Assembly: GCA_965223545.1 (NCBI GenBank)
Contig: OZ245006.1
Coordinates: 5,152,001-5,216,000 of the forward strand
Direction: 5' to 3'
DNA from: Planctomycetota bacterium
GTDB taxonomy: Bacteria; Planctomycetota; UBA1135; UBA2386
Length of the DNA: 64,000 nt
The notes beneath the pieces were generated by a model. The model ran no database searches. It had not been told where the DNA came from and saw only the letters and a list, made by a program, of their open reading frames with translations. How positions within the stretch are numbered: position 1 is the first letter of the stretch; every line of letters begins with the position of its first letter. Of this stretch, positions 10,143 to 41,050 are shown in pieces. Made by a program: the position numbers and the translations under genes.

Positions 10143-10181
10143 CGGGGGCCGCGATTGATGAATCGGAGCCTGACCTGAAAC

Positions 10182-11564
10182 TCACCCAGCCTCGGCGATC
10201 GGTATGAGCTTGTACCCGAGGGATTTAGCGTTCTGTCGGAGTCCGACGATGCGTCGCTGGGTGAAGCGCTCCTCGTAGGCCTTGGCGCCTTCGTCTACGT
10301 AGTCCTGGCCGAACTTCAGCATGCGGTAGATGAGCAGGGCCAGTTTGCGGGCGATGGCAAAGATGGCGACGTTGCCGTCCTTCGCGCGGGCGATCTTGCG
10401 GAAGTGTGCGCCGAGAGCTGTCTGAGTACGTTGGAGGGACAGGGCGGCCATCCGGAGGACCGTGGCGATCCTGCTGACCGCGATGTTGTTGCGGTGCTTC
10501 TTGATGCGCTTTCCACCCGAGACGGCTTGACGTGGGCACAGGCGTAGCCAGGAGACGAAGTGCTTCTCGGTCGGGAAAGCTTCGAGGTCGTAGCCGACCT
10601 CGGTGAGCACGATCATGGCCGTGCTCGGGCTGATACCGTCGATTCGCGTGAGATCACACCCGACGAGCCGGCAGAGGGCATCGCGAAGCTCCCGGCCGCC
10701 CTTCGTTCGGATGCTCCTCTCCTTGCGGGGGTCTGGATGCTCGGGGACGTCGGCCGTCTTGGCTTCCTCCGGTTGCAGGTCCTCGATCATCGCCATCAAT
10801 CGCTTCTCGACCGACTCGATCTCGTGGTCGGTGTGCTCGAGCATCCGCAAGCCCGAAGCGAGAGTGAAGATGTGCTCCTCGATCCAGGTCCCTTGCAAGT
10901 GATCCGCGAGCTCCTTCTCGGAGATCTTGCAGCGCGGATCACGCAGTCTGGCGAGCGCTCGAGGGTCGCGTTCACCAGCGAGAATCGCGCGGATGATCGC
11001 GAGGCCGGTCTTGCCGGTGATGTCCGTTACCGCGCGATGGATCGCCACGTTCATCTGATCCAGTGACCGCTGCATCAACTGCGTGTGGCGCGTGCGCTGC
11101 GCGATCAAAGACGCGGCATGGCGTTGCAGGGTCCGCAACGCACAGATGTCCTTCGGAGGCCGGAACGAAGCGCGAATGAGGCCATAGGTGTGTAGCTTCT
11201 GCAGCCAACTGCAATCGCTGGCATCGGACTTGGAGCGGCCCGGCACGTTCTTCACCTCGCGGGCATTCGCGAGGATGACCTCGAAGCCTCTCGACTCGAG
11301 TAGCTCGTAGACGGGAATCCAGTAGACATAGGTGCTCTCCATCGCGACGGATCGCACTCCGAGCTCCTCCAGCCAGTCCGCGAGCGCCTCTAGCTGGGGC
11401 GTCGTCGTTCCGAATCGCTTGATCGGACGACTGCCGTCGGGTGCTGCTGCGCACACCCAGTGCTCGCGGCTGCCGATGTCGATTCCGGCGGCGTTGGGCT
11501 TCACGACTGGCAATACTTCCGCTGCGGGCTTCTTGCCCTTCCTCGTTCTGCTCTTCCCAGCCAT
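10182..11564 (-). CDS. IS110-family DEDD recombinase/transposase (460 aa)
   Basis: RuvC-like GIDIG, MEST, KSDASD; Tnp domain IDGIS and QAVSGG (catalytic Ser); AIARKL. Confidence 0.95.
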   Translation of the reverse strand: MAGKSRTRKGKKPAAEVLPVVKPNAAGIDIGSREHWVCAAAPDGSRPIKRFGTTTPQLEALADWLEELGVRSVAMESTYVYWIPVYELLESRGFEVILANAREVKNVPGRSKSDASDCSWLQKLHTYGLIRASFRPPKDICALRTLQRHAASLIAQRTRHTQLMQRSLDQMNVAIHRAVTDITGKTGLAIIRAILAGERDPRALARLRDPRCKISEKELADHLQGTWIEEHIFTLASGLRMLEHTDHEIESVEKRLMAMIEDLQPEEAKTADVPEHPDPRKERSIRTKGGRELRDALCRLVGCDLTRIDGISPSTAMIVLTEVGYDLEAFPTEKHFVSWLRLCPRQAVSGGKRIKKHRNNIAVSRIATVLRMAALSLQRTQTALGAHFRKIARAKDGNVAIFAIARKLALLIYRMLKFGQDYVDEGAKAYEERFTQRRIVGLRQNAKSLGYKLIPIAEAG

Positions 11565-11814
11565 ACTTCATCCTCATTGTTGTGGTGGGCCCGGCCCGAG
11601 GCGGCGATCAAACGAATCTGACCTGCGGGAGTGGGCACGGCGACGTGCCCCTCACCAGTGAAGGATGGCCAACTCGGACCCAGACTGGCTCTGGGGCAAA
11701 CGTGCTCCAGTGGCTATTGGGGGCGTAGCTGCCGGGCCCCTCACACGTTCCCCTCCCCCTTCCTCAGCGGCTAGTTTCCTGCCCTGAAGGGCCGACAAAT
11801 CTGCCGGGGCAGGA
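11565..11814 (-). ncRNA. Putative bridge RNA region in the IS110 non-coding left end (copy 1)
   Basis: Same sequence as 27647-27896; transcript ends unknown. Confidence 0.6.
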
Positions 11815-11828
11815 CTGGCTCCGTACTT

Positions 11829-12776
11829 TCAGCGCAAGCGTGTGAGGGTGGTGTGGCGGGCGGCGAGGAAGTCGCGGTAGGCGCGGGAATCGCCGACTGC
11901 CTTCTCTAGCGCGGCGAGGCCTTCCGCGTAGAGGTCGAGGTCGGGCTTGTCGCGCGTTTCGAGGTAGAGCAGGATGCCGCCCCAGAAGTCGCGGGACGGG
12001 TTGCGGGCCACCGGGCGCTTGCCGGCGCGCCACATCGCGTAGAGCTGGCGGCCGACGTCGGCGCGGCCGGCTTCGTCGAAGCGGTCGTGCGCGGCGAGGA
12101 GGTCGAGCACTTCGAGGTCGGTCAGATAGCCGGCGACGCGGTCGGCGTCGGCGGGCGGCAGCGCGCCGGCGCGGGCCAGGAGCTGGCGGGCGGAATCGAG
12201 GTCGAGCGTGCGCTGCTCGACGCCGCGCAGCAGCAGGCGACGGTAGGCGGCGGCGACCGTGTTCTCGGTTTCGCGTTCGGCTTGCAGGAAGCTCTGCGCG
12301 CGGTCGACGAGGCCGCGCAGCTCCGCGACCGACTTCTCTCGCCAGCTGGGGTGCTGGCCGAGAATGCGGCCGCTGGCGTCGAGCACGGCGTGGTGCGGCC
12401 AGCCGCTGCCGCCGTGTGCGAACAGCAGTTGGTCGTAGCCGGCATCGAGATGCGCGGTGACGTGGCAGTAGAGCACGACGTCGCTGGCCAGCGCGGCGAA
12501 CTCGGGTGCCGAAAGGACCTGCCGCTCGCAGCGGATCGAGGTGCCGCAGGGCACGTAGCTGCGGGTGAAGTGGGCGAGGATCAGCTTGCCCTCGCGGGCG
12601 GCCACCTGCCGCGCCTTGTCCAGATCCGTGTGCCACTCCGCGCGGGTCACGAACGGCGCCGCGAGCTTGTCGTGCCGGCGCGCGCGCAGCGTTTCGGGGG
12701 CGGTCGAATCTTGGCATGGAGCCGGGGCCGCGGCGAAGGCCAAGGCGAGGGCGAAGGAGGTCGGCGGAAGTCGCAT
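11829..12776 (-). CDS. Secreted thioredoxin-like protein
   Basis: Signal peptide; WHTDLDKARQVAAREGKLILAHFTRSYVPCGTS; GGSGWPHHAVLDASG (cis-Pro region). Confidence 0.7.
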   Translation of the reverse strand: MRLPPTSFALALAFAAAPAPCQDSTAPETLRARRHDKLAAPFVTRAEWHTDLDKARQVAAREGKLILAHFTRSYVPCGTSIRCERQVLSAPEFAALASDVVLYCHVTAHLDAGYDQLLFAHGGSGWPHHAVLDASGRILGQHPSWREKSVAELRGLVDRAQSFLQAERETENTVAAAYRRLLLRGVEQRTLDLDSARQLLARAGALPPADADRVAGYLTDLEVLDLLAAHDRFDEAGRADVGRQLYAMWRAGKRPVARNPSRDFWGGILLYLETRDKPDLDLYAEGLAALEKAVGDSRAYRDFLAARHTTLTRLR

Positions 12777-12931
12777 GGTGGGCGCTTCGACGCACGAAGC
12801 GGCACTGGACTCCTGCACGGAGTCGGGAGACGTTCCTCGGTTTGCTGCGCCAACGCCGCTGCGACCGAGTCCGGCGGGTATCCTCGGCGGTCTCCGTGTT
12901 TGCCCGAGGTTTGCCCCCCAGGAGGTCACGC

Positions 12932-15976: not shown

Positions 15977-16022
15977 CCCGGCGGTGTTTGACGCCGCGCA
16001 CGCGCGCGCGGACGCTGTGCCG

Positions 16023-18155
<2,133 letters not shown>

Positions 18156-18165
18156 GCGCGCCGCA

Positions 18166-20797: not shown

Positions 20798-20933
20798 GGC
20801 AGCGGACGTTAACCGGTGGGCACGGCGTGCGGTGGGCCGGCGGTGCGTGTCACCGGCCGAGCCGTGCGAGCTATGCTTCTGACGGACCGCCGCGCCCATC
20901 CCTTGTGGCCTCGCGGCCGACTTTTCTTTCGCG

Positions 20934-24743: not shown

Positions 24744-25076
24744 CTGGTGCTCCTTTGGTAGATAGAGGATCCTCGACGCGCCAGCCCCCAAGCCACAGGC
24801 GCACTCTGCCACGATACCACGGATCCGAGCGAGCACCGATCGGCCACTCGACCGAGCGCCAGCGAGGCACATCCGCGGCGGGGCAGCCCGCTGATTGCGA
24901 TTGGCGCGTGATTGGCCACGACCAGGTCCCCGTACGTCCGAATCCGTGGAGGGGCGTGAGGCCTCGGCCTGCTCGACGGCCCGATTACAAACCTGCCGGC
25001 GTGCGAATGCACCGCCGCCAAGTGAGAAAAGCGAGCCTGACACCGTACGTCTCGTAATCTCGGGACGATGGTTGGC

Positions 25077-25874
25077 ATGCGCTTGATCTCCGTTGTCCTG
25101 TTGGCAGCTTCCGCGCCCTGCTTCGTTCTCTCGGAGCCGCGCCGCGAGCAGAGCGCCGTCGCGGTCCTTGGCACGTTTCACATGGCCAACCCCGGCCGTG
25201 ACGTGGTCAACGCAAACGTCGACGACGTGCTCTCCGAGGATCGTCAGCAGCAGCTCCAGGAGCTGTGTGACCTCTTGGCTGCCTTCGAACCGACGCACAT
25301 CGCGGTCGAGGCCGTGCCGGACCGCGCCGACGAGTTGGCGCGGCGCTACGCGGAGTACCGCGCCGGCACGCTGGAGCCCGATCGCAACGAGATCGTGCAG
25401 GTCGCGTTCCGCCTCGCGGACGCACTCGGGCACGAGCGCGTTTGGCCCGTGGACCATCGGCAGGACATGGCGATTGGCTCGGTGATGCAGTACGCGCAGC
25501 AGAACGACCCCGCCGCCGCCGCGCTGCTGGGCGAGTGGCGCGGGAAGATGCAGGCCACGCTGGACGAGGTCATGGCCAAACCGATCGTCGACATCTTCCG
25601 CTGGGCGAACCACCCCGACCGCGCCGCGGAGCACGACGCCGTCTACCTTCGCATGGCGCAGATCGGCGGTGGAGACACAATGGTCGGAGCGCAGGCGGTC
25701 GGCACATGGTACGCGCGCAACCTCGCGATCTTCGCGAACGTCGCCGCACTGGCCAGCGATCCTGACGCGCGGGTGCTGGTCCTGATCGGCGCCGGACACG
25801 CCCCTCTCCTCTGCGACTTCGTCCGCGGCGCGGACAACCTCGACCTGATCGACATCACCGAAGTCCTGAAGTGA
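25077..25874 (+). CDS. DUF5694-like secreted protein
   Basis: VLGTFHMANPGRD; NEIVQVAFRLA; WYARNLAIFAN; VLIGAGH. Confidence 0.8.
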   Translation: MRLISVVLLAASAPCFVLSEPRREQSAVAVLGTFHMANPGRDVVNANVDDVLSEDRQQQLQELCDLLAAFEPTHIAVEAVPDRADELARRYAEYRAGTLEPDRNEIVQVAFRLADALGHERVWPVDHRQDMAIGSVMQYAQQNDPAAAALLGEWRGKMQATLDEVMAKPIVDIFRWANHPDRAAEHDAVYLRMAQIGGGDTMVGAQAVGTWYARNLAIFANVAALASDPDARVLVLIGAGHAPLLCDFVRGADNLDLIDITEVLK

Positions 25875-25902
25875 CGGTACGGAGTCAGGCTCCGTACCGT
25901 CA
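25871..25902. repeat. Empty REP-like palindrome (IS110 target family)
   Basis: GTGACGGTACGGAGT-CAG-GCTCCGTACCGTCA; differs by one base from the reconstructed target of IS110 copy 2. Confidence 0.85.
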
Positions 25903-25921
25903 GGCTCGGTACGGAGATCCG

Positions 25922-27697
25922 ATGGCACATGGCTTCGTTCGCTCGCTCGTCCCAGCCCTGGTCTTGATACCGGCACTGGCCGCAGCCACCCAAGACCGGT
26001 CGCAGCGGGCAGCCGAGGAACGTGCGCTGATCGAGGGGGCAGTGGGCGATCCGCTGTCGCAGCGCGCGGCCGAGGCGTTCAACAAGCGCGACTGGCAGGA
26101 GGCCGAGCGAGCCTACGCCGCGCTCGTCGAGCGGGACCCGGCCGACGAGCGCGCTTGGTTGCGGCTCGGAACGGCACTGCACGCGCAGCAGAAGCTGGAC
26201 GCGGCGCTGCGGGCGTACGAGCACGCACTGGACTTCCCCAGCGCTGCCTACAACGCCGCTTGCATCCATGCGCTGCGCGGCGCTACGGACTTGGCACTCG
26301 ACCGGCTCCGCTCCGCGGTTGAAGTTGGGTTCCTCGATTTCGAGCACGCGCGGCGCGACCCGGATCTGTCGAACCTGCACGAAGACCCGGCCTTCGCGGC
26401 CGTGCTCGCGGCGATGGAGCGGCGGATGAAGACGCCGCTGCCCGAGGCGGTCCTCGGTCAGGCCGCGCCCGACTTCGAGCTCACCGACGTCGACGGCCGA
26501 CGCCATCGGCTCGAGTCGTACCGTGGGCGAATCGTCGTCCTCGAATGGACGAGCCACACGTGCCCGACGGTTGCACGCTACCACGAGTCGGCGAGACTGC
26601 CGGCGTCGGTCGCCGGTGTGACCGGCGATGACCTCGTGTGGCTCGCCATCGACTCCGGCGCAGAATGTGACGAGTGGGTCGACGCGATCCGAGAGTGGCG
26701 CTCGACGGTCGGCCACCGCCGCCCCTACCTGCTGGACCCATCGGGCGCGACGGGTCACCGCTACGGAGCGCAGGCGACACCTCAGATTTTCGTGATCGAC
26801 GGTTCCGGAGTGCTGCGCTACTCGGGGACTGTCGACGACGAAGGCGCGACCATCGACTACGTCGCCGCGACGGTCGCGGCGTTGCGCGAGGGTCGCGACC
26901 CGGCACCGACTTCCACCGAGCTCCGTGGCTGCACGATCAAGTACGCATCGGTGCTGCCAGGATTCGTCGCTGCCGACGTGTGGCAGTGCCCGCCCTGCGG
27001 CCTGCCGTGCGATCGCATCGTGTTCGCGACGCCGGGCCGCTGCCCGCAGTGTCGCATGGTCCTGGCCGCTCGAGTGCGGCGCAACGTGCAGACCGCGGCG
27101 AAGCCACACGCACAGCCGTTGTTCGACGCGGCCCGGATCGCCGCAAGAGCGGGTGAAGCGCAGCCGTGTCTCGCGAGCTTGCGTGCCGCGTTGGTCGCCG
27201 GCTTCGCGACACCCTCCAGGGTTCTGAGCGACGACGCGTTCGCCCCGCTGCTCGCCGTGCCCGAACCGCGCGCGGCGCTCCGCGAGCTGTTGGCCGAGTT
27301 CGCGAGCGAGTCGACGGCGACCATTGTCCGCAGCACGGAGCCCGGCAATCGCCTGCGGCTCGAGCTCACGATTCATGAAGCGGCGGGTACGCCCGTCGTC
27401 GACGCGCGCGTGGACCTGTACCAGACCGACGCTGCGGGCATCTACGATCCGGTGCACGGTTCGGAGAACCCACGTCTGTTCGCCAGCCTCGTTAGCGATC
27501 GCGACGGCCGCCTGGTCATCGACACGATCGTGCCCGCGGGCTACCCGGACGCGGACGTCTCCCCGCACGTTCACTACGTCGTCGAGACTGCCGGCGGGAC
27601 ACGCGACAGCGGCGAGATCGTGAGGAGAGTGACGGTACGGAGCCAGTCCTGCCCCGGCAGATTTGTCGGCCCTTCAGGGCAGGAAACTAGCCGCTGA
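25922..27697 (+). CDS. Multidomain secreted protein: TPR + AhpC/TSA redoxin + Cys-rich metal-binding + intradiol-dioxygenase-like; C-terminus runs into IS110
   Basis: AAYNAACIHA (TPR); APDFELTD...EWTSHTCP...GCTIKY; CPPCGLPCD..CPQC; YQTDAAGIY...PHVHY; the stop codon lies inside the IS. Confidence 0.75.
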   Translation: MAHGFVRSLVPALVLIPALAAATQDRSQRAAEERALIEGAVGDPLSQRAAEAFNKRDWQEAERAYAALVERDPADERAWLRLGTALHAQQKLDAALRAYEHALDFPSAAYNAACIHALRGATDLALDRLRSAVEVGFLDFEHARRDPDLSNLHEDPAFAAVLAAMERRMKTPLPEAVLGQAAPDFELTDVDGRRHRLESYRGRIVVLEWTSHTCPTVARYHESARLPASVAGVTGDDLVWLAIDSGAECDEWVDAIREWRSTVGHRRPYLLDPSGATGHRYGAQATPQIFVIDGSGVLRYSGTVDDEGATIDYVAATVAALREGRDPAPTSTELRGCTIKYASVLPGFVAADVWQCPPCGLPCDRIVFATPGRCPQCRMVLAARVRRNVQTAAKPHAQPLFDAARIAARAGEAQPCLASLRAALVAGFATPSRVLSDDAFAPLLAVPEPRAALRELLAEFASESTATIVRSTEPGNRLRLELTIHEAAGTPVVDARVDLYQTDAAGIYDPVHGSENPRLFASLVSDRDGRLVIDTIVPAGYPDADVSPHVHYVVETAGGTRDSGEIVRRVTVRSQSCPGRFVGPSGQETSR

Positions 27698-27896
27698 GGA
27701 AGGGGGAGGGGAACGTGTGAGGGGCCCGGCAGCTACGCCCCCAATAGCCACTGGAGCACGTTTGCCCCAGAGCCAGTCTGGGTCCGAGTTGGCCATCCTT
27801 CACTGGTGAGGGGCACGTCGCCGTGCCCACTCCCGCAGGTCAGATTCGTTTGATCGCCGCCTCGGGCCGGGCCCACCACAACAATGAGGATGAAGT
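27647..27896 (+). ncRNA. Putative bridge RNA region in the IS110 non-coding left end (copy 2)
   Basis: 250-bp non-coding end with hairpins (CCTGCCC..GGGCAGG; GGGCACG-TCGC-CGTGCCC) and guide-like GAGCCAG (27770-27776) and CAGGTCAG (27836-27843). Confidence 0.65.
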
Positions 27897-29279
27897 ATGG
27901 CTGGGAAGAGCAGAACGAGGAAGGGCAAGAAGCCCGCAGCGGAAGTATTGCCAGTCGTGAAGCCCAACGCCGCCGGAATCGACATCGGCAGCCGCGAGCA
28001 CTGGGTGTGCGCAGCAGCACCCGACGGCAGTCGTCCGATCAAGCGATTCGGAACGACGACGCCCCAGCTAGAGGCGCTCGCGGACTGGCTGGAGGAGCTC
28101 GGAGTGCGATCCGTCGCGATGGAGAGCACCTATGTCTACTGGATTCCCGTCTACGAGCTACTCGAGTCGAGAGGCTTCGAGGTCATCCTCGCGAATGCCC
28201 GCGAGGTGAAGAACGTGCCGGGCCGCTCCAAGTCCGATGCCAGCGATTGCAGTTGGCTGCAGAAGCTACACACCTATGGCCTCATTCGCGCTTCGTTCCG
28301 GCCTCCGAAGGACATCTGTGCGTTGCGGACCCTGCAACGCCATGCCGCGTCTTTGATCGCGCAGCGCACGCGCCACACGCAGTTGATGCAGCGGTCACTG
28401 GATCAGATGAACGTGGCGATCCATCGCGCGGTAACGGACATCACCGGCAAGACCGGCCTCGCGATCATCCGCGCGATTCTCGCTGGTGAACGCGACCCTC
28501 GAGCGCTCGCCAGACTGCGTGATCCGCGCTGCAAGATCTCCGAGAAGGAGCTCGCGGATCACTTGCAAGGGACCTGGATCGAGGAGCACATCTTCACTCT
28601 CGCTTCGGGCTTGCGGATGCTCGAGCACACCGACCACGAGATCGAGTCGGTCGAGAAGCGATTGATGGCGATGATCGAGGACCTGCAACCGGAGGAAGCC
28701 AAGACGGCCGACGTCCCCGAGCATCCAGACCCCCGCAAGGAGAGGAGCATCCGAACGAAGGGCGGCCGGGAGCTTCGCGATGCCCTCTGCCGGCTCGTCG
28801 GGTGTGATCTCACGCGAATCGACGGTATCAGCCCGAGCACGGCCATGATCGTGCTCACCGAGGTCGGCTACGACCTCGAAGCTTTCCCGACCGAGAAGCA
28901 CTTCGTCTCCTGGCTACGCCTGTGCCCACGTCAAGCCGTCTCGGGTGGAAAGCGCATCAAGAAGCACCGCAACAACATCGCGGTCAGCAGGATCGCCACG
29001 GTCCTCCGGATGGCCGCCCTGTCCCTCCAACGTACTCAGACAGCTCTCGGCGCACACTTCCGCAAGATCGCCCGCGCGAAGGACGGCAACGTCGCCATCT
29101 TTGCCATCGCCCGCAAACTGGCCCTGCTCATCTACCGCATGCTGAAGTTCGGCCAGGACTACGTAGACGAAGGCGCCAAGGCCTACGAGGAGCGCTTCAC
29201 CCAGCGACGCATCGTCGGACTCCGACAGAACGCTAAATCCCTCGGGTACAAGCTCATACCGATCGCCGAGGCTGGGTGA
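27897..29279 (+). CDS. IS110-family DEDD recombinase/transposase (460 aa)
   Basis: Protein identical to that of 10182..11564. Confidence 0.95.
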   Translation: MAGKSRTRKGKKPAAEVLPVVKPNAAGIDIGSREHWVCAAAPDGSRPIKRFGTTTPQLEALADWLEELGVRSVAMESTYVYWIPVYELLESRGFEVILANAREVKNVPGRSKSDASDCSWLQKLHTYGLIRASFRPPKDICALRTLQRHAASLIAQRTRHTQLMQRSLDQMNVAIHRAVTDITGKTGLAIIRAILAGERDPRALARLRDPRCKISEKELADHLQGTWIEEHIFTLASGLRMLEHTDHEIESVEKRLMAMIEDLQPEEAKTADVPEHPDPRKERSIRTKGGRELRDALCRLVGCDLTRIDGISPSTAMIVLTEVGYDLEAFPTEKHFVSWLRLCPRQAVSGGKRIKKHRNNIAVSRIATVLRMAALSLQRTQTALGAHFRKIARAKDGNVAIFAIARKLALLIYRMLKFGQDYVDEGAKAYEERFTQRRIVGLRQNAKSLGYKLIPIAEAG

Positions 29280-29312
29280 GTTTCAGGTCAGGCTCCGTAC
29301 CGTCACCCCTAC

Positions 29313-32375: not shown

Positions 32376-33559
32376 GACGTTCGCTCAACGAAGCGACGCA
32401 GCCGTGCCATGCCCTCGCGCAGCTCGTCGATCGCCGCGGCGTAGCTGATGCGGATGAAGCCAGGGATCGCGAATGCGCTGCCCGGCACCAGCGCCAGCCG
32501 CTCCTCGTCGAGCAGCCGCCGGCTCAGCTCGAGATCGTCGATCTGCAGCCGCGCGCACATACGCCGCGCGTCCACCAGCGCGTAGAATGCGCCGCCCGGT
32601 GCCTGCAGCGAGAGCTCGCCGAGCTGCGCGATCTCGTCGATGACCAGCTGGCGCCGCGCGCCGAATGCCGCCATGCGCGCCGCGCGTTCCTCGGTGTAAT
32701 CCAGCGCGCAGATCTCGAGCGCGGCGTGCTGGCTGATGGTGCACGGATTGCCGAGCACCTGGCTCTGGATCCTGCCGGCGGCGGCGATCACCTCGGCGTC
32801 ACCCGCCAAGAACGCCAGCCGCCAACCGGTGAACGAGTGCGATTTGGTCGCGCCGTTGACGACCATGGTGCGCGCGGCTCCCGCTTCGATCGCCGCCGGC
32901 GACACGTGGCGGCGATCTCCGTAGATCAACCCGGCGTAGATCTCGTCGGACAGGATCCACAAGTCGTTGGCGACCGCGGCGTCGACCAGATCCTCGAGCT
33001 GGGCGCGCGTCGGCACGGCGCCGGAGGGGTTGTTGGGGTAGTTCAGCAGAACGCCCGCCGCCCCAGCGCTCCGCGCTGCCTCGTCGAGCTGCGCGCCGGT
33101 GTGCACGAAGCCCTGCTCCGGCACCGGATCGACGATCACCGGCCGGCCGCCGGCGACCCCGACCAGATCGGGATACGACACCCAGTACGGCGCCAGGATG
33201 CACACCGGCTGCCCCGGTTCGAGCAGAGTGGTCAGCGCCATGTGCAGCGCCGCCTTGGCACCGGCGCACACCATGACCCGCTCCGCGTCGTAGCGCAGAT
33301 CGAACTGCGCCAGCCACTCGGCTGCCGCCTGGCGCAGTGCGGGCAAGCCGGAGGTCGCGGTGTAGCGCGTTGCCCCGCTCTCGATCGCCGCGATTCCGGC
33401 GCGGCGCACCGGCTCCGGCGTGGCGAAGTCGGGCTCGCCGGCGCTCAAAGAGATCACGTCCTCGCCGGCGGCGCGCAGCTCCGCCGCCCGCGCGGAGATC
33501 GCCAGCGTCACCGATTCGGCGACGGCGCGGGCACGGGCGCTGGGGGTCGGGAGCGGCAT
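32372..33559 (-). CDS. aspC: PLP-dependent class I aminotransferase (aspartate aminotransferase-like)
   Basis: AGEPDF; PNNPSG; SDEIY; K..SFTGWRL. Confidence 0.88.
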   Translation of the reverse strand: MPLPTPSARARAVAESVTLAISARAAELRAAGEDVISLSAGEPDFATPEPVRRAGIAAIESGATRYTATSGLPALRQAAAEWLAQFDLRYDAERVMVCAGAKAALHMALTTLLEPGQPVCILAPYWVSYPDLVGVAGGRPVIVDPVPEQGFVHTGAQLDEAARSAGAAGVLLNYPNNPSGAVPTRAQLEDLVDAAVANDLWILSDEIYAGLIYGDRRHVSPAAIEAGAARTMVVNGATKSHSFTGWRLAFLAGDAEVIAAAGRIQSQVLGNPCTISQHAALEICALDYTEERAARMAAFGARRQLVIDEIAQLGELSLQAPGGAFYALVDARRMCARLQIDDLELSRRLLDEERLALVPGSAFAIPGFIRISYAAAIDELREGMARLRRFVERTS

Positions 33560-33690
33560 CGGCGGCGCGGCCAGCGTAGACAGGATCTTCGCCCGAGTCC
33601 ATTCACGGGAAGACCGGCGCCCGGCGAATCGTCCCATTGCAATCGGCTCCGCTGGGATCGTTCGCGGCAGCCGCTAACGTGACGCGAACC

Positions 33691-35754: not shown

Positions 35755-35767
35755 GACGCGGCCGGTC

Positions 35768-35795
35768 TTGAAACTCGGGCAGTCCCGGGTATCGT
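35768..35795 (+). promoter_or_regulatory. Sigma-70-like promoter for tRNA-Leu
   Basis: TTGAAA-N16-TATCGT, 14 bp upstream of the tRNA. Confidence 0.5.
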
Positions 35796-35809
35796 CCTCC
35801 GCCCCGCTC

Positions 35810-35898
<89 letters not shown>

Positions 35899-35903
35899 CT
35901 TGG

Positions 35904-35933
35904 ACGGCCCGGGCCGACGGCCTGGGCCGTTTT
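35904..35933 (+). terminator. Intrinsic terminator after the tRNA
   Basis: ACGGCCCGGGCC-GAC-GGCCTGGGCCGT followed by a T-run. Confidence 0.7.
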
Positions 35934-36025
35934 CGTTCCTGCGTTGCGGCGTCCCGCGCCGCCGATACGGTACTGCGATCGTGACTAGCAAATGGGGTGG
36001 GCAGCCGGGCGCTGCCCCTGACAGT

Positions 36026-36955
36026 GTGTTGGCGCCAGAGGCGCGCGTCTGGCTCGACGGCGAGCTGCGGGCGCCGGCCGATGCGCAGTTGGGTCTCTTG
36101 ACCCACACGCTGCACTACGGCTTCGGGTTGTTCGAGGGCATCCGCGCCTACCGCCAGGCCGACGGCGGCTCGGCGGTGTTTCGCCTGGCTGAGCACGTTG
36201 CGCGCATGTTCGACGGCGCGAAGATCCTCGACCTCGAGATCCCGTTCACCGCGGAACGCTTGGTCGACGCCTGCATCGAGACCCTCACCGCCAATCGGTT
36301 GGCAGAGGCCTACCTGCGGCCGGTGGTGTTCGTCGGTGAAGGGCGGATGGGGATCTACGCCCCGCAAAACCCGGTGCGCGTCGGCATCGCCGCCTGGGAG
36401 TGGGGCGCCTACCTCGGCGACGAAGGCTTGCAGCGCGGCATCCGCTGCCGCGTGTCCTCGTTCACGCGCACCCACGTCAACACCAACATGGTGCGCGCCA
36501 AGGTGACCGGTGGCTACATCACGTCGATCTTGGCGAAGAGCGAGGCCGCAAGAGACGGCTACGACGAGGCGATCCTGCTCGACCAGGACGGCTACTGCGC
36601 CGAGGGGTCGGGCGAGAACCTGTTTGCGATCTACGACGGCACTCTGGTGACGCCGCCGCTGTCGTCGCCGATCCTCGCCGGCATCACCCGCGACGCGCTG
36701 CTGACGCTGGCGCGCGAGCGCGGCATCGCCGTCGAGGAGCGCCGCTTCTCCCGCGACGAACTCTATCTCGCCGACGAGGCGTTCTTCACCGGGACCGCCG
36801 CCGAGGTCACGCCGATCCGCGAGGTCGACGGTCGCACCATCGGCACCGGCGAGCCGGGGCCGGTGACCAAGACGCTGCAGGACGCGTTCTTCAAGGTGCT
36901 ACGCGGCGAGGTCGCGGAGCACGCCGACTGGCGCGCCACCTATCGCGTCGACTGA
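36026..36955 (+). CDS. ilvE: Branched-chain amino acid aminotransferase
   Basis: LHYGFGLFEGIRAY; AKVTGGY; EGSGENLF; ILAGITR; TGTAAEV. Confidence 0.95.
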   Translation: MLAPEARVWLDGELRAPADAQLGLLTHTLHYGFGLFEGIRAYRQADGGSAVFRLAEHVARMFDGAKILDLEIPFTAERLVDACIETLTANRLAEAYLRPVVFVGEGRMGIYAPQNPVRVGIAAWEWGAYLGDEGLQRGIRCRVSSFTRTHVNTNMVRAKVTGGYITSILAKSEAARDGYDEAILLDQDGYCAEGSGENLFAIYDGTLVTPPLSSPILAGITRDALLTLARERGIAVEERRFSRDELYLADEAFFTGTAAEVTPIREVDGRTIGTGEPGPVTKTLQDAFFKVLRGEVAEHADWRATYRVD

Positions 36956-36976
36956 GCAAAACGCTACGCCGCGCGC

Positions 36977-38668
36977 TCAGTAGCCGGCGGCGTGGCCGTC
37001 CTTGCGCGCCTCGGTCGCACCGACGTAGACGCCGTTGTCGAGGCGGCGCAGCACGGCTTGGTAGCCGCCGAAGCCGTCGGTCGCGACCTCCACGCGATGG
37101 CCGCGCTCGCGCAGGGCCTCCGCCAAGGACGCCGGAAAGCCGGGCTCCAGCAGCACCGTGCCTCCATCGGTCATCCGTTCGCCGGTGGGTTGCGACGAGC
37201 CGCTGTGCCGCACGCGCGGTGCGTCGCCGGCTTCCTGCAGGTTCATGCCGAAGTCGAGCAGGTTGACGAGGATCTGCACGTGGCCCTGCGGCTGCATCGC
37301 GCCGCCCATCACTCCGAAGCTCAAGTACGGCGCCCCGTCGCGGGTGACGAACGCCGGAATGATGGTGTGGAACGGCCGCTTGCCGGGCGCGTAGCTGTTG
37401 GGGCGGCCGGGCTCGAGATCGAACAGTTCGCCTCGATCCTGCAGGCAGAAGCCGAGGGTCGGGGGCGTCATGCCGGAGCCCATGCCCCGGTAGTTGCTCT
37501 GGATCAGCGACACCATGTTGCCGTCGGCGTCGGCGACCGACAGGTAGACCGTGTCGCCGTGTTCGAGCGCGGCGATCCCCGTGTCGTAGCGCGCCGCCGC
37601 GCGCTCGCCGATGAGCGCGCGCCGCTCGGTGGCGTACTCCTCCGAGATCAAGCGCTCCACCGGCAGGTCGCCAAACGCCGGGTCCGCGTACCAGTGGGCC
37701 CGGTCTTCGAAGGCGAGCTTCTTGGCTTCGACGAGCAGGTGCACGTAGTCCGCGCTGCCAAAGCCCATCGCCCCGAGATCGTAGCTCTCGAGGATGTTCA
37801 GCATCTGCAGCGCGGCGATCCCCTGGCCGTTGGGTGGCAGCTCGTGCACCTCGAAGCCGCGGTACGACACCGACACCGGCGTCACCCACTCGGACCGGTG
37901 AGCGGCGAGATCCTCGCGGCTCAGAAAGCCACCCTCGGCGGCCAGGAAGTCGACCAGCTGGCCGGCGATCTCGCCGTCGTAGAACGCGTCGCGCCCGTCG
38001 GCCGCGATGCGCTCGAGCGTCGTCGCCAGGGCAGGGTTGCGGAACAGCTCGCCCTTGCGCGGCGCGCGCCCGTCGATGGTGAACACCTCGGCGAAGCCCG
38101 GGTAGTCGCGCAGCGCGCGGACCCCGCGCGCCCAAGCCGCGGCGATCACGGCGGACACCGGAAACCCATCGCGCGCGTAGCCGATCGCCGGCGCCAGCAC
38201 CGCGGTCATCGGCAGCCGGCCAAACCGATCGTGCAGGGCGAACCAGCCGTCGACGCATCCCGGCACGGTCACCGGCAGCGGGCCGTGCGCGGGAATCTTT
38301 TCGAGGCCGCGTTCGGCGAGCATCGCGGCGGTGAGCGCGCGCGGCGAGCGGCCCGTCCCGTTGAGCCCATGCAGCTGGCCGCTTGCGGCATCCCAGACGA
38401 TCGCGAAGAGATCTCCGCCAATGCCGCAGCCGGTCGGCTCGACGACACCGAGCACGGCGTTGGCCGCGATCGCCGCGTCGACCGCCGATCCCCCGCTGCG
38501 CAAGACCTGGAGTGCGGCCTGCGTCGCGAGGGGCTGGCTGGTCGCCGCCATGGCATGGCGGGCGATCGCTTCGGATCGCGTTGCGAACGAGACTTCGCCG
38601 TGCCGGGCTTGGGCGGGGATCGACATCATGACGCAGGCGAACGCGAGCGGGAGGAGCGGGTGGGCCAT
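36977..38668 (-). CDS. ggt: Gamma-glutamyltransferase
   Basis: GGSAVDAAIA; GIGGD; DTVYLSVAD (Thr nucleophile); PGKRPFHT; MGGAMQPQG. Confidence 0.95.
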   Translation of the reverse strand: MAHPLLPLAFACVMMSIPAQARHGEVSFATRSEAIARHAMAATSQPLATQAALQVLRSGGSAVDAAIAANAVLGVVEPTGCGIGGDLFAIVWDAASGQLHGLNGTGRSPRALTAAMLAERGLEKIPAHGPLPVTVPGCVDGWFALHDRFGRLPMTAVLAPAIGYARDGFPVSAVIAAAWARGVRALRDYPGFAEVFTIDGRAPRKGELFRNPALATTLERIAADGRDAFYDGEIAGQLVDFLAAEGGFLSREDLAAHRSEWVTPVSVSYRGFEVHELPPNGQGIAALQMLNILESYDLGAMGFGSADYVHLLVEAKKLAFEDRAHWYADPAFGDLPVERLISEEYATERRALIGERAAARYDTGIAALEHGDTVYLSVADADGNMVSLIQSNYRGMGSGMTPPTLGFCLQDRGELFDLEPGRPNSYAPGKRPFHTIIPAFVTRDGAPYLSFGVMGGAMQPQGHVQILVNLLDFGMNLQEAGDAPRVRHSGSSQPTGERMTDGGTVLLEPGFPASLAEALRERGHRVEVATDGFGGYQAVLRRLDNGVYVGATEARKDGHAAGY

Positions 38669-38833
38669 GGGAGAGTCGGGCGATTCTAGCCCGATCCCGG
38701 CGGCGGATGCCGGCCCTCCCTTCGAGCCATCGCAATCGGCGACGGCCGCCGGAGCGCGGCACTTTCTCGGGGGACTGCTAGACTGGGAGCCCGAGCGCCG
38801 CGCAGGATTGGCGGCGCCGGTCGAGTGCAGTCC

Positions 38834-39733
38834 ATGGCTTCCGAACAGACACAACCTCTGCCCGCCGCGATCGAGGCCGCGGTCAGTCTGTTGGCGGACG
38901 CCGAGCCGCGCGTGGTGGCCGCCTGCCGCGAGCAGCTGCTGCGCTGGGGCGAGCCCGCGGTGCCCGTCCTGCGGCGCGTCGCCATCGGTTCGGATGCGCG
39001 GCTGCGCGTGCGCGCGCGCTCGCTGCTGCGCACGCTCGAGCTACGCGCCTGGAGTGCGCAGGTCCGCAGCTTCGCGCGCGCCATCGAGCAGGGCAGGCCG
39101 GCGCGCATCGGGGCGGGATCGTTGCTCGAGAGTGGGCTGTTGTTGTTGTCGTCGCTGACGCGCGCCGAGGACTTGGACCGGGCCGGCTACGAGGGGGCGG
39201 TGGCTGCCTTCGGCCGCGAGCTGCGCGGCAAGGTGCGCGGCCGCACCGCGGCGAGCGCGGCGCGTTCGCTCGGTGCATACATGGCGGAGCGGCTGGAGTT
39301 CACCGCGGAGTCGGCCAGTCTGTACGATCTCGACGCGGTCGCCATCGACGTCGCCACCCAGCGGCGGCTGGCGACTCCTCTCGTCTTGGCGTTGCTCTAT
39401 GCGATCGTCGGCCGGCGCGCGGGCTTGCGCGTCACCGTCGTCGGCTTGCCCGAGGATTGGTTGGTGCGCGTGCACGGCGCGCGCCCGGTGCTCGTCGACC
39501 CGCTGCGCGGTGGTGAGAGTTTGACCAAGGCCGATTGCGTTCGCCATCTGCGCGTCACGGGCTACAGTAGCGGCGCGTCGGCCTACCTGTCGGACCTCGA
39601 TGACCGCGCTCTGCTGCTCGCCCACGTCGAAAGCCTGCAACGCGTGTTCGGCTACCGTGAGGACGGCGAGGTGCTGCGCGCGCTGCGCCAAGCGCACGAC
39701 GCGCTCGGTCGGGTCGCCGACAGCACGAAGTAG
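38834..39733 (+). CDS. SirB1/transglutaminase-like (Transglut_core2) protein
   Basis: PLVLALLYAIVGRRAGL..TVVGLP; LVDPL.GG. Confidence 0.7.
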   Translation: MASEQTQPLPAAIEAAVSLLADAEPRVVAACREQLLRWGEPAVPVLRRVAIGSDARLRVRARSLLRTLELRAWSAQVRSFARAIEQGRPARIGAGSLLESGLLLLSSLTRAEDLDRAGYEGAVAAFGRELRGKVRGRTAASAARSLGAYMAERLEFTAESASLYDLDAVAIDVATQRRLATPLVLALLYAIVGRRAGLRVTVVGLPEDWLVRVHGARPVLVDPLRGGESLTKADCVRHLRVTGYSSGASAYLSDLDDRALLLAHVESLQRVFGYREDGEVLRALRQAHDALGRVADSTK

Positions 39734-39764
39734 CAGCGCGGCGCGGCAGCTTCGCGCGGTCGGC

Positions 39765-41021
39765 GTGGGGTGGCTGGTCGGCTTGACTGGGTGCGCGGGG
39801 TTGTTCCAAGAGGCCATGCCGGCGCGTCCGGCGGAGATGGCATTGGCTGCTTCGGTTGGGGAGGTCGAAGTCGGCGCCGCCGCCGTCGACATCACGCCCG
39901 AGCGCGACCTGTACTTGGGTGGATTCGATCTGGCGCGGCCGGCGACCGGGGTGCACTCGCGGCTCGAGGCGCGCGCGATGGTGATCCGGGCCGGCGGGGT
40001 CCGGGTGGCGTTGGTCGGCGTCGACAACCTCGGCCTACAGCGGGACGACGTCGAGTGGATCAAGAGCGGCATCACCGGCTTTCGCAACGGCTGCGTGTTC
40101 GTGTGCAGCAGCCACACCCACGCGGCGCCCGATCTGGTCGGGTTTTGGGGCTACTACTTCCTGACGTCCGGGCGCGACCGTGACTACTTGCGGCGCGTGC
40201 GCGACGGCGTCTGTCAGGCCGTGCAGCTGGCGACCGAGCGGCTGCGGCCGGCGACGTTGATCCGCGGGGAGGCGCTGCTGCCGCCGCGCGGGCTGGTGCG
40301 CAACAGCAACCGGACGGGATTGTTCGACCGGCGGTTCACCGTCGTGCAGGCGCGCGACCGCGCGACCGGCGCGCCGTTGGCGGCGTTGCTGCACATGGCC
40401 TGTCACCCCGAGGCGCTGCGCCGCCGCAACACGATGGTGTCGGCCGATTTCGTCGGCTCACTGTGCGACGCCTGGTCGGCCGCGGGCTTGGGACAGCCGG
40501 TTTTCGTCAACGGCGCGCTCGGCGCGATGATCTCGCCCGAGCCGCAAGGCGAGGAGGGCGTGGCGGAGATGGGCGCCGCGCTCTTCGAGGTGGCGCAGCG
40601 CGCGTTGGCCGCGGCGCGGCCGCTGCCCGTCACCGAGATCGAGGTGCGGCGGCGCGATGTGTACCTACCGCTGACGTCGCCGGGTCTGCTGCTCGGGCGG
40701 TTGACCCTGGCGATCCCACGGCGCGCCTACGACGACCACATGCGGACGACCGTCGGCTATCTGCGGCTCGGTGCATTGCAGGCGGTGTCGGTTCCGGGCG
40801 AGGTCGAGCCGACGCTCGCCGAGCGCTGGCGGCGGCGCACCGGGGTTCCCGATCTCCTGCTGTTCGGGCTCTGCGACGACGAGGTGGGCTACTTGATGCG
40901 CACGGTCGATGCGCGTGACCCGGAGTTCGCCTACGAGCGGTTGATGTCGCCGTGCGTCGACGCCGGCGCGCGCGTCGAGGCGGCGTTGATCGGTGGTGCG
41001 GCCGCGTCGGCGCGGTGGTGA
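39765..41021 (+). CDS. Neutral/alkaline ceramidase N-terminal-like lipoprotein
   Basis: GAAAVDITP; SSHTHAAPD; ACHPE; SADF; start codon uncertain. Confidence 0.7.
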   Translation: MGWLVGLTGCAGLFQEAMPARPAEMALAASVGEVEVGAAAVDITPERDLYLGGFDLARPATGVHSRLEARAMVIRAGGVRVALVGVDNLGLQRDDVEWIKSGITGFRNGCVFVCSSHTHAAPDLVGFWGYYFLTSGRDRDYLRRVRDGVCQAVQLATERLRPATLIRGEALLPPRGLVRNSNRTGLFDRRFTVVQARDRATGAPLAALLHMACHPEALRRRNTMVSADFVGSLCDAWSAAGLGQPVFVNGALGAMISPEPQGEEGVAEMGAALFEVAQRALAAARPLPVTEIEVRRRDVYLPLTSPGLLLGRLTLAIPRRAYDDHMRTTVGYLRLGALQAVSVPGEVEPTLAERWRRRTGVPDLLLFGLCDDEVGYLMRTVDARDPEFAYERLMSPCVDAGARVEAALIGGAAASARW

Positions 41022-41050
41022 TGAACGGGAGCCTGGCTCCGTACTTTCAG
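41019..41050. repeat. Empty REP-like palindrome (IS110 target family) between convergent genes
   Basis: TGATGAACGGGAGC-CTG-GCTCCGTACTTTCAG versus the reconstructed copy-1 target TGATGAATCGGAGC-CTG-GCTCCGTACTTTCAG (2 differences). Confidence 0.85.

What the first reader, a model, noticed from the sequence alone, without database searches (positions are those of the whole stretch)
10155..41050. REP-like palindrome family is the IS110 landing pad: two filled and two empty sites
Seen: four sites share GGAG(C/T)-CAG-GCTCC. Type A is GTGACGGTACGGAGYCAGGCTCCGTACCGTCA (empty at 25871, filled at 27629/29306). Type B is TGATGAA..GGAGCCTGGCTCCGTACTTTCAG (filled at 10156/11832, empty at 41019). Both insertions are at the same centre. 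The empty 25871 site has T instead of C beside the core, a mismatch to the candidate guide, while 41019 matches fully. Known: IS621 targets E. coli REP sequences. Inference: an undescribed extragenic repeat family provides safe insertion sites, and 41019 is a predicted future target.
Basis: partly seen in the sequence, partly recalled or inferred. Interest (0 to 1): 0.8.

Follow-up and report, generated by a model that had tools for sequence, protein, structure and literature searches.

The report
IS110 element homes into REP hairpins
A jumping gene of the RNA-guided IS110 type has put all 23 of its copies into the centre of one short palindromic repeat that litters this genome after genes; this targeting habit is already known from E. 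coli and Pseudomonas and is seen here, very cleanly, in an uncultured high-GC bacterium.

Summary

Genome-wide counts:
- The 8.1-Mb genome holds 23 full IS copies. All 23 have GAGCC-AG on the left, and 22 have AG-GCTCC on the right.
- 85 unoccupied GGAGCC-W-GGCTCC sites remain. Composition-matched palindromes have a median of 1 copy.

The repeat behaves as a REP/REPIN family. It lies outside genes and abuts stop codons. It often occurs as inverted doublets. It brackets a RAYT-like tyrosine-transposase gene, and both of that gene's flanking repeats carry an IS.

The element is an IS110-group member with a 250-nt left end. A variable block there (GAGCC-AG, window 27770-27776) equals the left flank. 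The same block matches the left flank for 19 of 29 distinct guides in relatives, against a mean of 0.55 in shuffles.

REP-like sites with one mismatch under this guide are never occupied (0 of 43 against 23 of 108). These include the window's 25871 site and a second REP family of 32 copies.

The 41019 site is a valid target, but only one of 85. The core is AG, not CAG.

This is a new member of a known kind (IS621, ISPpu10). The scan has noted the same arrangement in other genomes.

The parts
10156..10172 (-). REP-1 right half (ATTCATCA arm) plus one copy of the core, flanking IS copy 1. On the minus strand it reads C-AG-GCTCCGATTCATCA.
10173..11814 (-). IS110-group element, copy 1 (body 1642 nt between the two CAG). 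The recombinase ORF is 10182-11564 (-), 460 aa. Guide segments: LTG 11685-11691, RTG candidate 11713-11715, LDG 11618-11625.
11815..11832 (-). REP-1 left half (GTAC arm) plus core, flanking IS copy 1. On the minus strand it reads CTGAAAGTACGGAGC-CAG.
25871..25902 (.). Empty symmetric REP-1 variant, core GGAGTC-A-GGCTCC. The T at 25885 mismatches the guide at the second base left of the AG core. Read on the other strand, the core itself is CT. The stop codon of the upstream ORF (25068-25874) is the repeat's own TGA.
   Evidence: 13-bp hairpin, -16 kcal/mol, z -7.8
27629..27646 (+). REP-1 left half (GTGACGGTACGGAGC) plus CAG, flanking IS copy 2.
27647..29288 (+). IS110-group element, copy 2 (1645 bp counting one AG core). 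The left non-coding end is 27647-27896 and the recombinase ORF is 27897-29279 (460 aa). Only about 10 nt follow the stop codon.
27746..27748 (+). Candidate right target guide (AGC). It can pair with GCT, the first three bases right of the core, and lies directly 5' of a conserved CAYUGG motif. Tentative.
   Evidence: 42 contiguous pairs over 23 rows at this offset, reached by 2 of 20000 shuffles, with 8 offsets tried. The window's own row has 3 pairs.
27770..27776 (+). Left target guide plus core (GAGCC-AG). It is identical to the top strand left of every insertion.
27836..27843 (+). Left donor guide plus core (CAGGTC-AG). It is identical to the last bases of the element's right end plus the core.
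29289..29306 (+). CAG plus REP-1 right half (GCTCCGTACCGTCAC), flanking IS copy 2.
41018..41050 (-). Empty canonical REP-1 (asymmetric type). On the minus strand it reads CTGAAAGTACGGAGCC-AG-GCTCCCGTTCATCAC, a full match to the guide. The stop codons of the two convergent ORFs (39600-41021 + and 41047-41769 -) lie in its two terminal TGA.

Best explanation
The palindromes are copies of a REP/REPIN-type repeat family, here called REP-1. In the orientation the IS uses, its consensus is sTGAAnGTACGGAGCC-A-GGCTCC(G/C)(A/G)TTCATCAC. A minority of copies have a second GTAC arm and are fully symmetric. The family is inferred to be spread by a RAYT-like HUH tyrosine transposase, whose gene is itself bracketed by two inverted REP-1 copies.

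The 1645-bp insertion sequence is an IS110-group element with a DEDD/serine recombinase. Its 250-nt left end encodes a bridge-type guide RNA.
- One segment of that RNA (GAGCC-AG) is identical to the top strand left of the crossover, so it can pair with the bottom strand there.
- A second segment (CAGGTC-AG) does the same for the element's own right end.
- A short third segment (AGC) probably pairs with GCT to the right of the crossover.

Recombination between the excised circle and the chromosome at the shared AG puts the element exactly at the apex of the REP hairpin. The central base of the palindrome (A or T) decides which strand carries AG, and so fixes the orientation of the insertion.

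The roughly 10-bp recognised word GAGCC-AG-GCT occurs almost only in REP-1, and REP-1 lies just after stop codons. Insertions therefore land outside genes. 85 matched sites remain free, and window 41018-41050 is one of them.

Shown here: the site census, the flanks, the protein families, and guide-flank covariation across relatives. Inferred: that the RNA is made, that it pairs as in IS621, that a circle is the intermediate, and that the RAYT moves the repeats.
For: IS copies and flanks:
- There are 23 full copies at 99.3-100% identity.
- Left flanks read GTACGGAGCC-AG in 21, GTACCGAGCC-AG in 1 and AATCGGAGCC-AG in 1, so all 23 share GAGCC-AG. Right flanks read AG-GCTCC in 22 of 23.
- The one copy with the 'wrong' arm on its left (C1 1714928) sits in a repeat whose centre base is reversed. 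Orientation therefore follows the AG, not the arms.

Protein family:
- The recombinase matches Pfam DEDD_Tnp_IS110 (93.6 bits) and Transposase_20 (53 bits).
- It matches NCBIfam 'IS110 family RNA-guided transposase' at 247.9 bits against a cut-off of 140.
- A long left end with a short right end is the IS110-group layout with the bridge RNA in the left end (Durrant 2024, passages).

Guides:
- The left-end RNA scaffold is conserved in 38 related loci.
- For 19 of 29 distinct guide sequences, the block before a conserved AG is found as at least 7 contiguous bases in the 30-260 nt upstream. Shuffled guide-locus pairs give a mean of 0.55 and a maximum of 3.
- The donor guide matches the right end with at most 1 mismatch in 8 in most loci.
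- None of the 12 variable positions among the 23 copies falls in a guide.

Specificity:
- 0 of 43 REP-like sites with a mismatch inside GAGCC are occupied, against 23 of 108 canonical ones (Fisher p = 2.8e-4).
- GAGCCAG alone occurs 1969 times, so the guide 7-mer cannot be the whole signal.
- The 10-mer GAGCCAGGCT occurs 104 times, 88 of them in REP-model hits.

REP nature:
- 85 empty copies exist and all have at least one GTAC arm.
- 14 neighbour pairs lie within 120 bp, 12 of them inverted.
- 54 of 60 approaching gene tails stop within 22 nt of the centre.
- Only 1 of 85 has the same open frame on both sides.
- The RAYT-like ORF (Pfam Y1_Tnp 37.8 bits; its only PDB hit is E. coli TnpA-REP 4ER8) is flanked by inverted REP-1 copies.
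Against: - No transcript data: the guide RNA, its ends and its fold are inferred. Rfam has no matching family. The single-sequence fold is only mildly better than shuffles (z -2.0).
- The right target guide is short (3 bp in this element). It lies 5' of the left guide, the reverse of the IS621 order (LTG 50-58, RTG 77-80; Hiraizumi 2024, passage). Only 10 of 23 rows show 3 or more pairs.
- No right donor guide was found.
- If the 10-mer were sufficient, the chance that all 23 copies sit in REPs rather than in the 16 non-REP 10-mers is about 0.045 (111/127 to the 23rd power). Either some further determinant (hairpin, longer pairing) or selection against genic insertions is also at work.
- The Fisher test rests mostly on the 32 REP-2 copies, which differ elsewhere too. 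With the 11 REP-1-armed variants alone, p = 0.12.
- The RAYT-like protein scores 63.5 bits, below NCBIfam's 80-bit cut-off for REP-associated tyrosine transposase.
- Related copies are not independent events.
Confidence: 0.88

Rival explanations
1. The recombinase recognises the hairpin or cruciform shape of the palindrome (protein-structure recognition), and the guide-flank identity plays little part.
For: The crossover is exactly at the dyad centre, and all targets share a 6-bp inner stem. Symmetric sites are occupied somewhat more often (7 of 20) than asymmetric ones (15 of 87). For ISPpu10, a preprint reports that a target stem-loop adds specificity beyond base pairing (10.64898/2026.03.19.712850, abstract and sections 3 and 7 read). 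The 16 non-REP 10-mer sites are all empty.
Against: The symmetric-versus-asymmetric difference is not significant (p = 0.12). Asymmetric sites fold weakly as single strands (-4.5 kcal/mol, z -1.3) yet hold 15 of the 22 classifiable insertions. REP-2 and GGATCC/GGAGTC variants keep the palindrome but are never used. The guide block covaries with the left flank across 19 of 29 different guides in relatives whose targets are unrelated sequences.
Confidence: 0.07
2. The palindromes are ordinary transcription-terminator hairpins or regulatory sites that happen to be similar, not a mobile REP family. The IS simply targets terminators.
For: They lie just after stop codons: 54 of 60 gene tails stop within 22 nt of the centre. 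Four of 40 related genomes have a single copy of the 17-mer after genes.
Against: - There are 85 or more near-identical copies with conserved non-stem arms.
- 12 inverted doublets share a spacer type.
- Copies are nested inside other copies.
- Two paralogous RAYT-like genes are each bracketed by its own repeat family.
- The 17-mer gives 98 hits in this genome, against 0 or 1 in each of the 40 relatives searched.
- No T-run follows the hairpins in the copies read.
Confidence: 0.04
3. The half-palindromes belong to the IS itself (terminal sequences or a target duplication made on insertion), so the 'empty' sites are remnants of the IS.
For: Every copy is bounded by the same short sequences.
Against: - 85 intact palindromes exist with no IS sequence in them.
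- The outer arms differ from copy to copy while the IS is identical.
- Relatives of the IS with other guides sit in unrelated flanks.
- The repeats bracket a RAYT-like gene, as REPs do.
- Only three sites carry an IS-like 5-bp remnant.
Confidence: 0.01

Closest known systems
IS621 of Escherichia coli (IS110 group) and its bridge RNA; inserts into REP sequences (Choi 2003 as cited in, and Durrant 2024 PMC11208160, passages read; Hiraizumi 2024 PMC11208158, passages)
   Same: - DEDD plus serine-domain recombinase.
- Long non-coding left end and very short right end.
- A shared core dinucleotide at both junctions, with no other duplication.
- Left guide segments that equal the top strand of the left target and of the right end.
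- The target is a host REP family.
   Different: - The recombinase is a distant relative. No comparison with IS621 itself was run.
- The core is AG, not CT.
- The left guide is 5+2 nt rather than 7+2.
- The candidate right target guide lies 5' of the left guide, not 3' of it.
- The crossover is at the apex of the REP hairpin. From recall, IS621 inserts at the foot of the REP; this was not checked here.
- No experimental data exist for this element.
ISPpu10 / ISPpu9 of Pseudomonas putida KT2440 (IS110 family in REPs; preprint 10.64898/2026.03.19.712850, abstract and sections 3 and 7 read; PMC12288879, search listing only)
   Same: - All copies sit in one conserved intergenic repeat.
- Targets are mostly outside genes and often occur as convergent pairs. 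[quoted passage not shown]
- The element marks the edge of a duplication: an 1818-bp tandem here, and segmental amplifications of more than 100 kb there.
   Different: In ISPpu10 the stem-loop lies 5' of the crossover and the left target forms its 3' arm. Here the crossover is in the loop itself, so the two arms are the left and right targets. The core there is CT. Whether the structure helps recognition here is untested.
REP / REPIN elements with RAYT (E. coli TnpA-REP, PDB 4ER8)
   Same: - Short imperfect palindromes outside genes.
- About a hundred copies, specific to one lineage.
- Frequent inverted doublets.
- A single-copy Y1 HUH transposase gene bracketed by two inverted repeats.
- The HUH and Y..NP motifs align with 4ER8.
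   Different: - The protein is 333 aa with an extra C-terminal helix-turn-helix-like part (Sigma70_r4_2, 21.2 bits, below the cut-off). It scores below NCBIfam's RAYT cut-off.
- There are two RAYT-like paralogues (45% identical), each with its own repeat family.
- The repeats begin and end with TGA, and these often serve as the stop codons of the neighbouring genes.

Membership tests
IS110 family, IS110 group (bridge-RNA recombinase elements) | [quoted passage not shown] | tested here: met
   93.6 bits (cut-off 29) and 53 bits (cut-off 21.3). NCBIfam NF033542 at 247.9 bits (cut-off 140).
IS110 family, IS110 group (bridge-RNA recombinase elements) | Long non-coding left end and short right end, the layout that separates the IS110 group from IS1111 (Durrant 2024) | tested here: met
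   The left end is 250 nt (27647-27896). About 10 nt lie between the stop codon (29279) and the core.
IS110 family, IS110 group (bridge-RNA recombinase elements) | The same short core at both junctions and once in the empty site, with no further target duplication | tested here: met
   AG (here preceded by C on both sides) is at both ends of 23 of 23 copies and occurs once in 85 empty sites. AG is conserved in most of the 38 related loci; two loci have AA.
IS110 family, IS110 group (bridge-RNA recombinase elements) | Non-coding RNA with guide segments that covary with the target and donor flanks | tested here: met
   Left target guide: 19 of 29 distinct guides match, against a mean of 0.55 in shuffles. 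The left donor guide matches the right ends. The right target guide is tentative. The right donor guide was not found.
IS110 family, IS110 group (bridge-RNA recombinase elements) | The RNA is expressed, and a circular intermediate with a right-end/left-end junction forms | not testable with these tools
   Only assembled contigs of DNA runs were available. No RNA run was laid.
IS110 family, IS110 group (bridge-RNA recombinase elements) | IS621-like order within the target loop (left guide, stem-loop, right guide) | tested here: not met
   The candidate right guide (27746-27748) lies 22 nt 5' of the left guide (27770-27776). In IS621 the LTG is at 50-58 and the RTG at 77-80. This is a feature of IS621, not of the family. 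Durrant 2024 reports diverse bridge RNA structures.
REP / REPIN elements | A short palindromic repeat in many copies, outside genes | tested here: met
   85 empty plus 23 occupied canonical copies, and 102 profile hits at E<=0.01. 1 of 85 has one open frame across it. 54 of 60 gene tails stop within 22 nt of the centre.
REP / REPIN elements | A RAYT gene (Y1 HUH transposase) flanked by two inverted copies of the repeat | tested here: met
   ORF L002:1462-2463 is flanked by REP-1 halves on both sides. The paralogue in L001 is flanked by REP-2 variants.
REP / REPIN elements | The protein scores as a REP-associated tyrosine transposase (NCBIfam NF047646, cut-off 80 bits) | tested here: not met
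   63.5 bits, E 1.9e-17, covering 3-145 of 146 profile positions. Pfam Y1_Tnp is met at 37.8 bits against a cut-off of 23. The only PDB match is TnpA-REP 4ER8, E 0.066.
REP / REPIN elements | Inverted doublets (REPINs) | tested here: met
   12 of 14 neighbour pairs within 120 bp are inverted. Further doublets have one or both members occupied.
REP / REPIN elements | The RAYT binds and cuts the repeat, and the repeats are mobile | not testable with these tools
   The evidence is indirect only: copies nested in copies, and 98 hits of the 17-mer in this genome against 0-1 in 40 relatives.

The most novel reading that the evidence does not exclude
The IS is a hyperparasite of the REP/RAYT system, and the two are in an arms race.
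- By inserting at the hairpin apex, the IS destroys the structure a RAYT must recognise.
- It has already split both repeats that bracket the RAYT-1 gene.
- The sister family REP-2, with its own RAYT paralogue, differs by a C-to-T change under the guide and has escaped entirely (0 of 32 copies occupied).

In addition, this clade's bridge RNA may carry its two target guides in the opposite order to IS621. The three GGAGCC-AG-GTC-AG-GCTCC sites may be natural scars of mis-registered excision at a second AG inside the right end.
Probability: 0.15. Interest if true: 0.6.

Novelty: new member of a known kind. Interest (0 to 1): 0.35.

Why it matters
The case adds a very clean natural data set for how short a bridge-RNA match can be and still give safe, repeat-restricted insertion:
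- 23 insertions and 85 matched empty sites.
- 43 one-mismatch sites that are never used.
- One copy whose orientation follows the centre base rather than the arms.
- One tandem duplication joined at an AG.
- Three scar-like sites.

It shows the REP-targeting habit outside the proteobacterial models. It also gives a directly testable pair of natural targets, REP-1 and REP-2, that differ by one base under the guide.

It does not change what is known about the mechanism.

Tried and rejected
- **GGAGC as the right target guide.** GGAGC at left-end positions 107-111 is the exact complement of GCTCC. It was rejected because the block is a conserved GGWGC in relatives whatever their right flank is. 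Its last base covaries with a downstream partner, as in a stem (read by eye).
- **Right donor guide.** It was sought as antisense matches anywhere in the left end and by analogy 5' of the second CAYUGG (11 offsets). No convincing signal was found.
- **First right-guide matrix.** The matrix was unclear, because the anchor was mis-set for some rows.
- It used hand-copied strings. It was redone from the alignment, and only one search is used.
- **Rfam.** No family matched at gathering score over the window or at E<=10 over 27600-27920.
- **Polymorphic insertion or excision.** Five runs hold the stretch, all as assembled contigs. Four were laid on 25700-41200. Contigs break at the IS ends and at the 41019 repeat. 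The one joint across (29296 to 41016, with 14 letters between) is another IS copy's flank. No verdict is possible.
- **Metagenome contig scans.** The unique left flank of copy 2 and the 27-mer of REP-1 each gave 0 matches.
- **Earlier notes on this genome.** Only an unrelated UvrA note was found.
- **Arm preference of the IS.** 1 of 15 asymmetric occupied sites, against 6 of 72 asymmetric empty sites, have the non-GTAC arm on the AG-left side. There is no difference.
- **Correction to my notebook.** My first notebook entry said all 23 left flanks carry GTAC. That is wrong for one copy (C1 1714928) and is corrected here.

Full report
**1. The observation**

- The symmetric palindrome is empty at 25871-25902, with core GGAGTC-A-GGCTCC at 25881-25893.
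- The same palindrome is split at 27629-27646 / 29289-29306 by an insertion whose body is 27647-29288.
- The asymmetric form is split at 10156-10172 / 11815-11832 by the same element on the other strand (body 10173-11814).
- The asymmetric form is empty at 41018-41050.

The two bodies are identical over 1642 nt. In the window the motif is already above chance: 4 matches against a mean of 0.51 in shuffles, with 1 of 100 shuffles reaching 4.

**2. The whole genome**

The window is C1:5152001-5216000 of a genome of 8.07 Mb plus a 39.6-kb contig, 69.7% G+C. BLAST finds 23 full copies of the element (99.3-100% identity) and one 111-nt fragment.

Read in the element's orientation:
- The left flank ends GTACGGAGCC-AG in 21 copies, GTACCGAGCC-AG in one and AATCGGAGCC-AG in one.
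- The right flank begins AG-GCTCC in 22 copies.
- The exception (C1 4826213) is the first unit of an 1818-bp tandem duplication.

Unoccupied GGAGCC-W-GGCTCC occurs 85 times, all on C1. The 59 other palindromes made from permutations of the half-site have a median of 1 and a maximum of 22. All 85 have at least one GTAC arm. 79 have it on the side that lies left of AG, 6 have the other arm there, and 13 are symmetric. A profile built from the 85 finds 102 loci at E<=0.01.

**3. What the repeat is**

It behaves as a REP/REPIN family.
- A crude coding call on the 150 nt either side finds one open frame running through only 1 of 85 copies. 49 of 85 have at least one gene tail next to them.
- Of 60 gene tails that approach a copy, 54 stop within 22 nt of the centre. 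25 use the TGA that forms the outer end of the repeat itself. In the window this is seen at 25872-25874, 41019-41021 and 41047-41049.
- 14 pairs of empty copies lie within 120 bp, 12 of them inverted. Further doublets have one or both members occupied.
- Some copies are nested in the centre of others.

A search of the genome with Pfam Y1_Tnp finds two near-full-length matches.
- The first is a 333-aa ORF (L002:1462-2463). It scores 37.8 bits on Y1_Tnp and 63.5 bits on NCBIfam 'REP-associated tyrosine transposase', below that model's 80-bit cut-off. Its only PDB match is E. coli TnpA-REP 4ER8 (E 0.066), with the HUH and Y..NP motifs aligned.
- This gene is bracketed by two inverted REP-1 copies, and both are occupied by the IS (C1 3912805-3914482 and 3915530-3917208).
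- The second gene (in L001) is 45% identical to the first. It is bracketed by variants of a second family, REP-2 (GTACGGAGTCAGGCTCGATTTTCTCG..., 32 copies, often in inverted pairs).

The exact 17-mer of REP-1 gives 98 hits on the two strands of this genome. It gives a single hit in 4 of the 40 related genomes searched and none in the other 36. The 27-mer is absent from the metagenome contig collection. The 13-mer core is in no paper of the searchable library.

**4. What the element is**

The 460-aa ORF carries DEDD_Tnp_IS110 and Transposase_20 and passes NCBIfam's 'IS110 family RNA-guided transposase'. The left non-coding end is 250 nt and the right end about 10 nt. This is the layout of the IS110 group, whose bridge RNA lies in the left end (Durrant 2024, passages).

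Seventy-five related loci were fetched. The nearest is 78% identical in protein, and the rest are 58% or less, mostly from Polyangia, Sandaracinaceae and Acidobacteriota MAGs. A profile of the left end, iterated, aligns 38 of them. The alignment shows a conserved scaffold with two similar modules: CAYUGG, then a stem-loop, then YCCC, then a variable block, then AG.

- **Left target guide.** The variable block of the first module, with its AG, is found as at least 7 contiguous bases just upstream of the element for 19 of 29 distinct guide sequences. With guides shuffled among loci the mean is 0.55 and the maximum 3. In this element it reads GAGCC-AG (27770-27776), a perfect match to all 23 left flanks. 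The eighth base is usually a mismatch in relatives too, so the guide is 5+2 nt.
- **Left donor guide.** The block of the second module matches the last bases of the right end. Here it reads CAGGTC-AG at 27836-27843.
- **Core.** These comparisons fix the core as AG. The C before it belongs to the left target and, on the other side, to the right end.
- **Right target guide (tentative).** The bases directly 5' of the first CAYU pair with the first bases of the right flank. At this offset there are 42 contiguous pairs over 23 rows, reached by 2 of 20000 shuffles, and 8 offsets were tried. This element has only AGC:GCT. This places the right guide 5' of the left guide, the reverse of IS621.
- **Right donor guide.** None was found.
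- **Variation.** None of the 12 positions that vary among the 23 copies lies in a guide.

**5. How selective it is**

- GAGCCAG occurs 1969 times in the genome, so the left guide alone cannot explain 23 of 23 copies in REPs (about 1e-29).
- GAGCCAGGCT occurs 104 times, 88 of them inside REP-model hits. Under a pure 10-mer rule the chance that all 23 fall in REPs is about 0.045. Either a little more is recognised (a longer right pairing, or the hairpin as reported for ISPpu10 in a preprint), or insertions into the 16 other sites are removed by selection.
- Structure cannot be the main signal. The asymmetric type folds weakly (-4.5 kcal/mol, z -1.3, against -16 kcal/mol and z -7.8 for the symmetric type), yet it holds 15 of the 22 classifiable insertions. 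The higher occupancy of symmetric sites (7 of 20 against 15 of 87) is not significant (p = 0.12).
- REP-like sites with one mismatch inside GAGCC are never occupied. They comprise 8 with GGATCC, 2 with GGAGTC (one is the window's 25871 site), 1 with an extra base, and 32 REP-2. That is 0 of 43 against 23 of 108 (p = 2.8e-4). With the 11 REP-1-armed variants alone, p = 0.12.
- The one copy with the non-GTAC arm on its left (C1 1714928) shows that orientation follows the centre base, which sets the strand that carries AG, and not the arms.

**6.

41018-41050 is a full match and a legitimate target, but it is one of 85. The attempt to see polymorphism failed for lack of raw reads. Five runs hold the stretch, all as contigs. 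The contigs stop at the IS ends and at the repeat.

**7. Comparison and verdict**

That IS110-family elements insert into REPs is long known (Durrant 2024, passages citing Choi 2003 and Tobes and Pareja 2006; the ISPpu10 preprint; ISPpu9, search listing). This scan has noted the same arrangement in other genomes.

What is particular here:
- The AG core.
- The crossover at the hairpin apex.
- The short 5+2(+3) match.
- The possibly inverted guide order.
- Occupation of both repeats around the RAYT gene.
- The untouched sister family REP-2.

I rate it a new member of a known kind, of moderate interest.

Noticed in passing
G000 C1, 32 places (e.g. 1670069/1670119, 2516975/2517025); L001:1380-1415 and 2478-2512: A second repeat family, REP-2 (GTACGGAGTCAGGCTCGATTTTCTCGCTT...), has 32 copies, many in inverted pairs. 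Variants of it bracket a second RAYT-like gene that is 45% identical to the first. No IS copy sits in REP-2. The reading frame of this second gene runs on through the downstream repeat with no nearby stop.
   Followed up: partly
G000 C1 6469829, 6715159, 7558344: Three REP-1 copies have the centre AGGTCA instead of A. They read GGAGCC-AG-GTC-AG-GCTCC. The extra 5 bp equal the last three bases of the IS right end plus the core. This looks like a scar of excision at the second AG inside the right end (TTTC-AG-GTC-AG). The papers read describe restoration of the left-target/right-target junction; 'scar' and 'footprint' occur 0 times in PMC13626964.
   Followed up: partly
G000 C1 4826056-4829708: An 1818-bp tandem duplication of 157 nt of flank, the REP left half and the IS. 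The novel joint puts the IS right end plus AG against an AG-CAGACACC site 157 nt upstream of the repeat. This is as expected from a recombinase-made unequal exchange at a pseudo-core.
   Followed up: partly
G000 C1 1013423, 4330714, 4241081-4241231: REP-1 copies are nested in the centre of other REP-1 copies (GGAGC | whole repeat | GGCTCC). The repeat itself therefore seems to insert at or near the same central position that the IS uses.
   Followed up: no
window 25872-25874, 41019-21, 41047-49; genome-wide: The repeat begins and ends with TGA (sTGA...TCAs). In 25 of 60 approaching genes the stop codon is this TGA. At 41018-41050 two convergent ORFs both end inside one repeat.
   Followed up: partly
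window 29305-31304: A second, unrelated insertion sequence of about 2.0 kb lies directly beside the right REP half of IS copy 2. It has a DDE_Tnp_1 transposase (ORF 29378-31186, minus strand) and terminal inverted repeats, in 8 copies at 99.7% identity or more. Most of its other copies are flanked by CTAG-like sequence, not by REPs. Contig depth agrees with several copies.
   Followed up: partly
window 27746-27776: In this IS clade the candidate right target guide lies 5' of the left target guide, with a small stem-loop (GGWGC ... GCCCS) between them. This is the opposite order to IS621.
   Followed up: partly
G000 C1, 12 places (e.g. 5691132, 7214346, 1355010): Twelve further partial Y1_Tnp matches of about 27 bits have nearly identical scores. 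They suggest another multi-copy element with a Y1-like domain.
   Followed up: no
G000 C1 988112-988640: A 111-nt fragment of the IS110 element lies next to two fragments (255 and 82 nt, 90-93% identity) of the DDE element. This is a decayed cluster of both insertion sequences.
   Followed up: no
L009:1649-1760: The closest relative of the IS (78% protein identity, uncultured bacterium) also sits in a palindromic target (GTGCC-AG-GCAC). That target is part of a long inverted doublet, and the other half carries a second, inverted IS copy.
   Followed up: no
window 35810-35895: A tRNA gene is the only Rfam match in the window.
   Followed up: no
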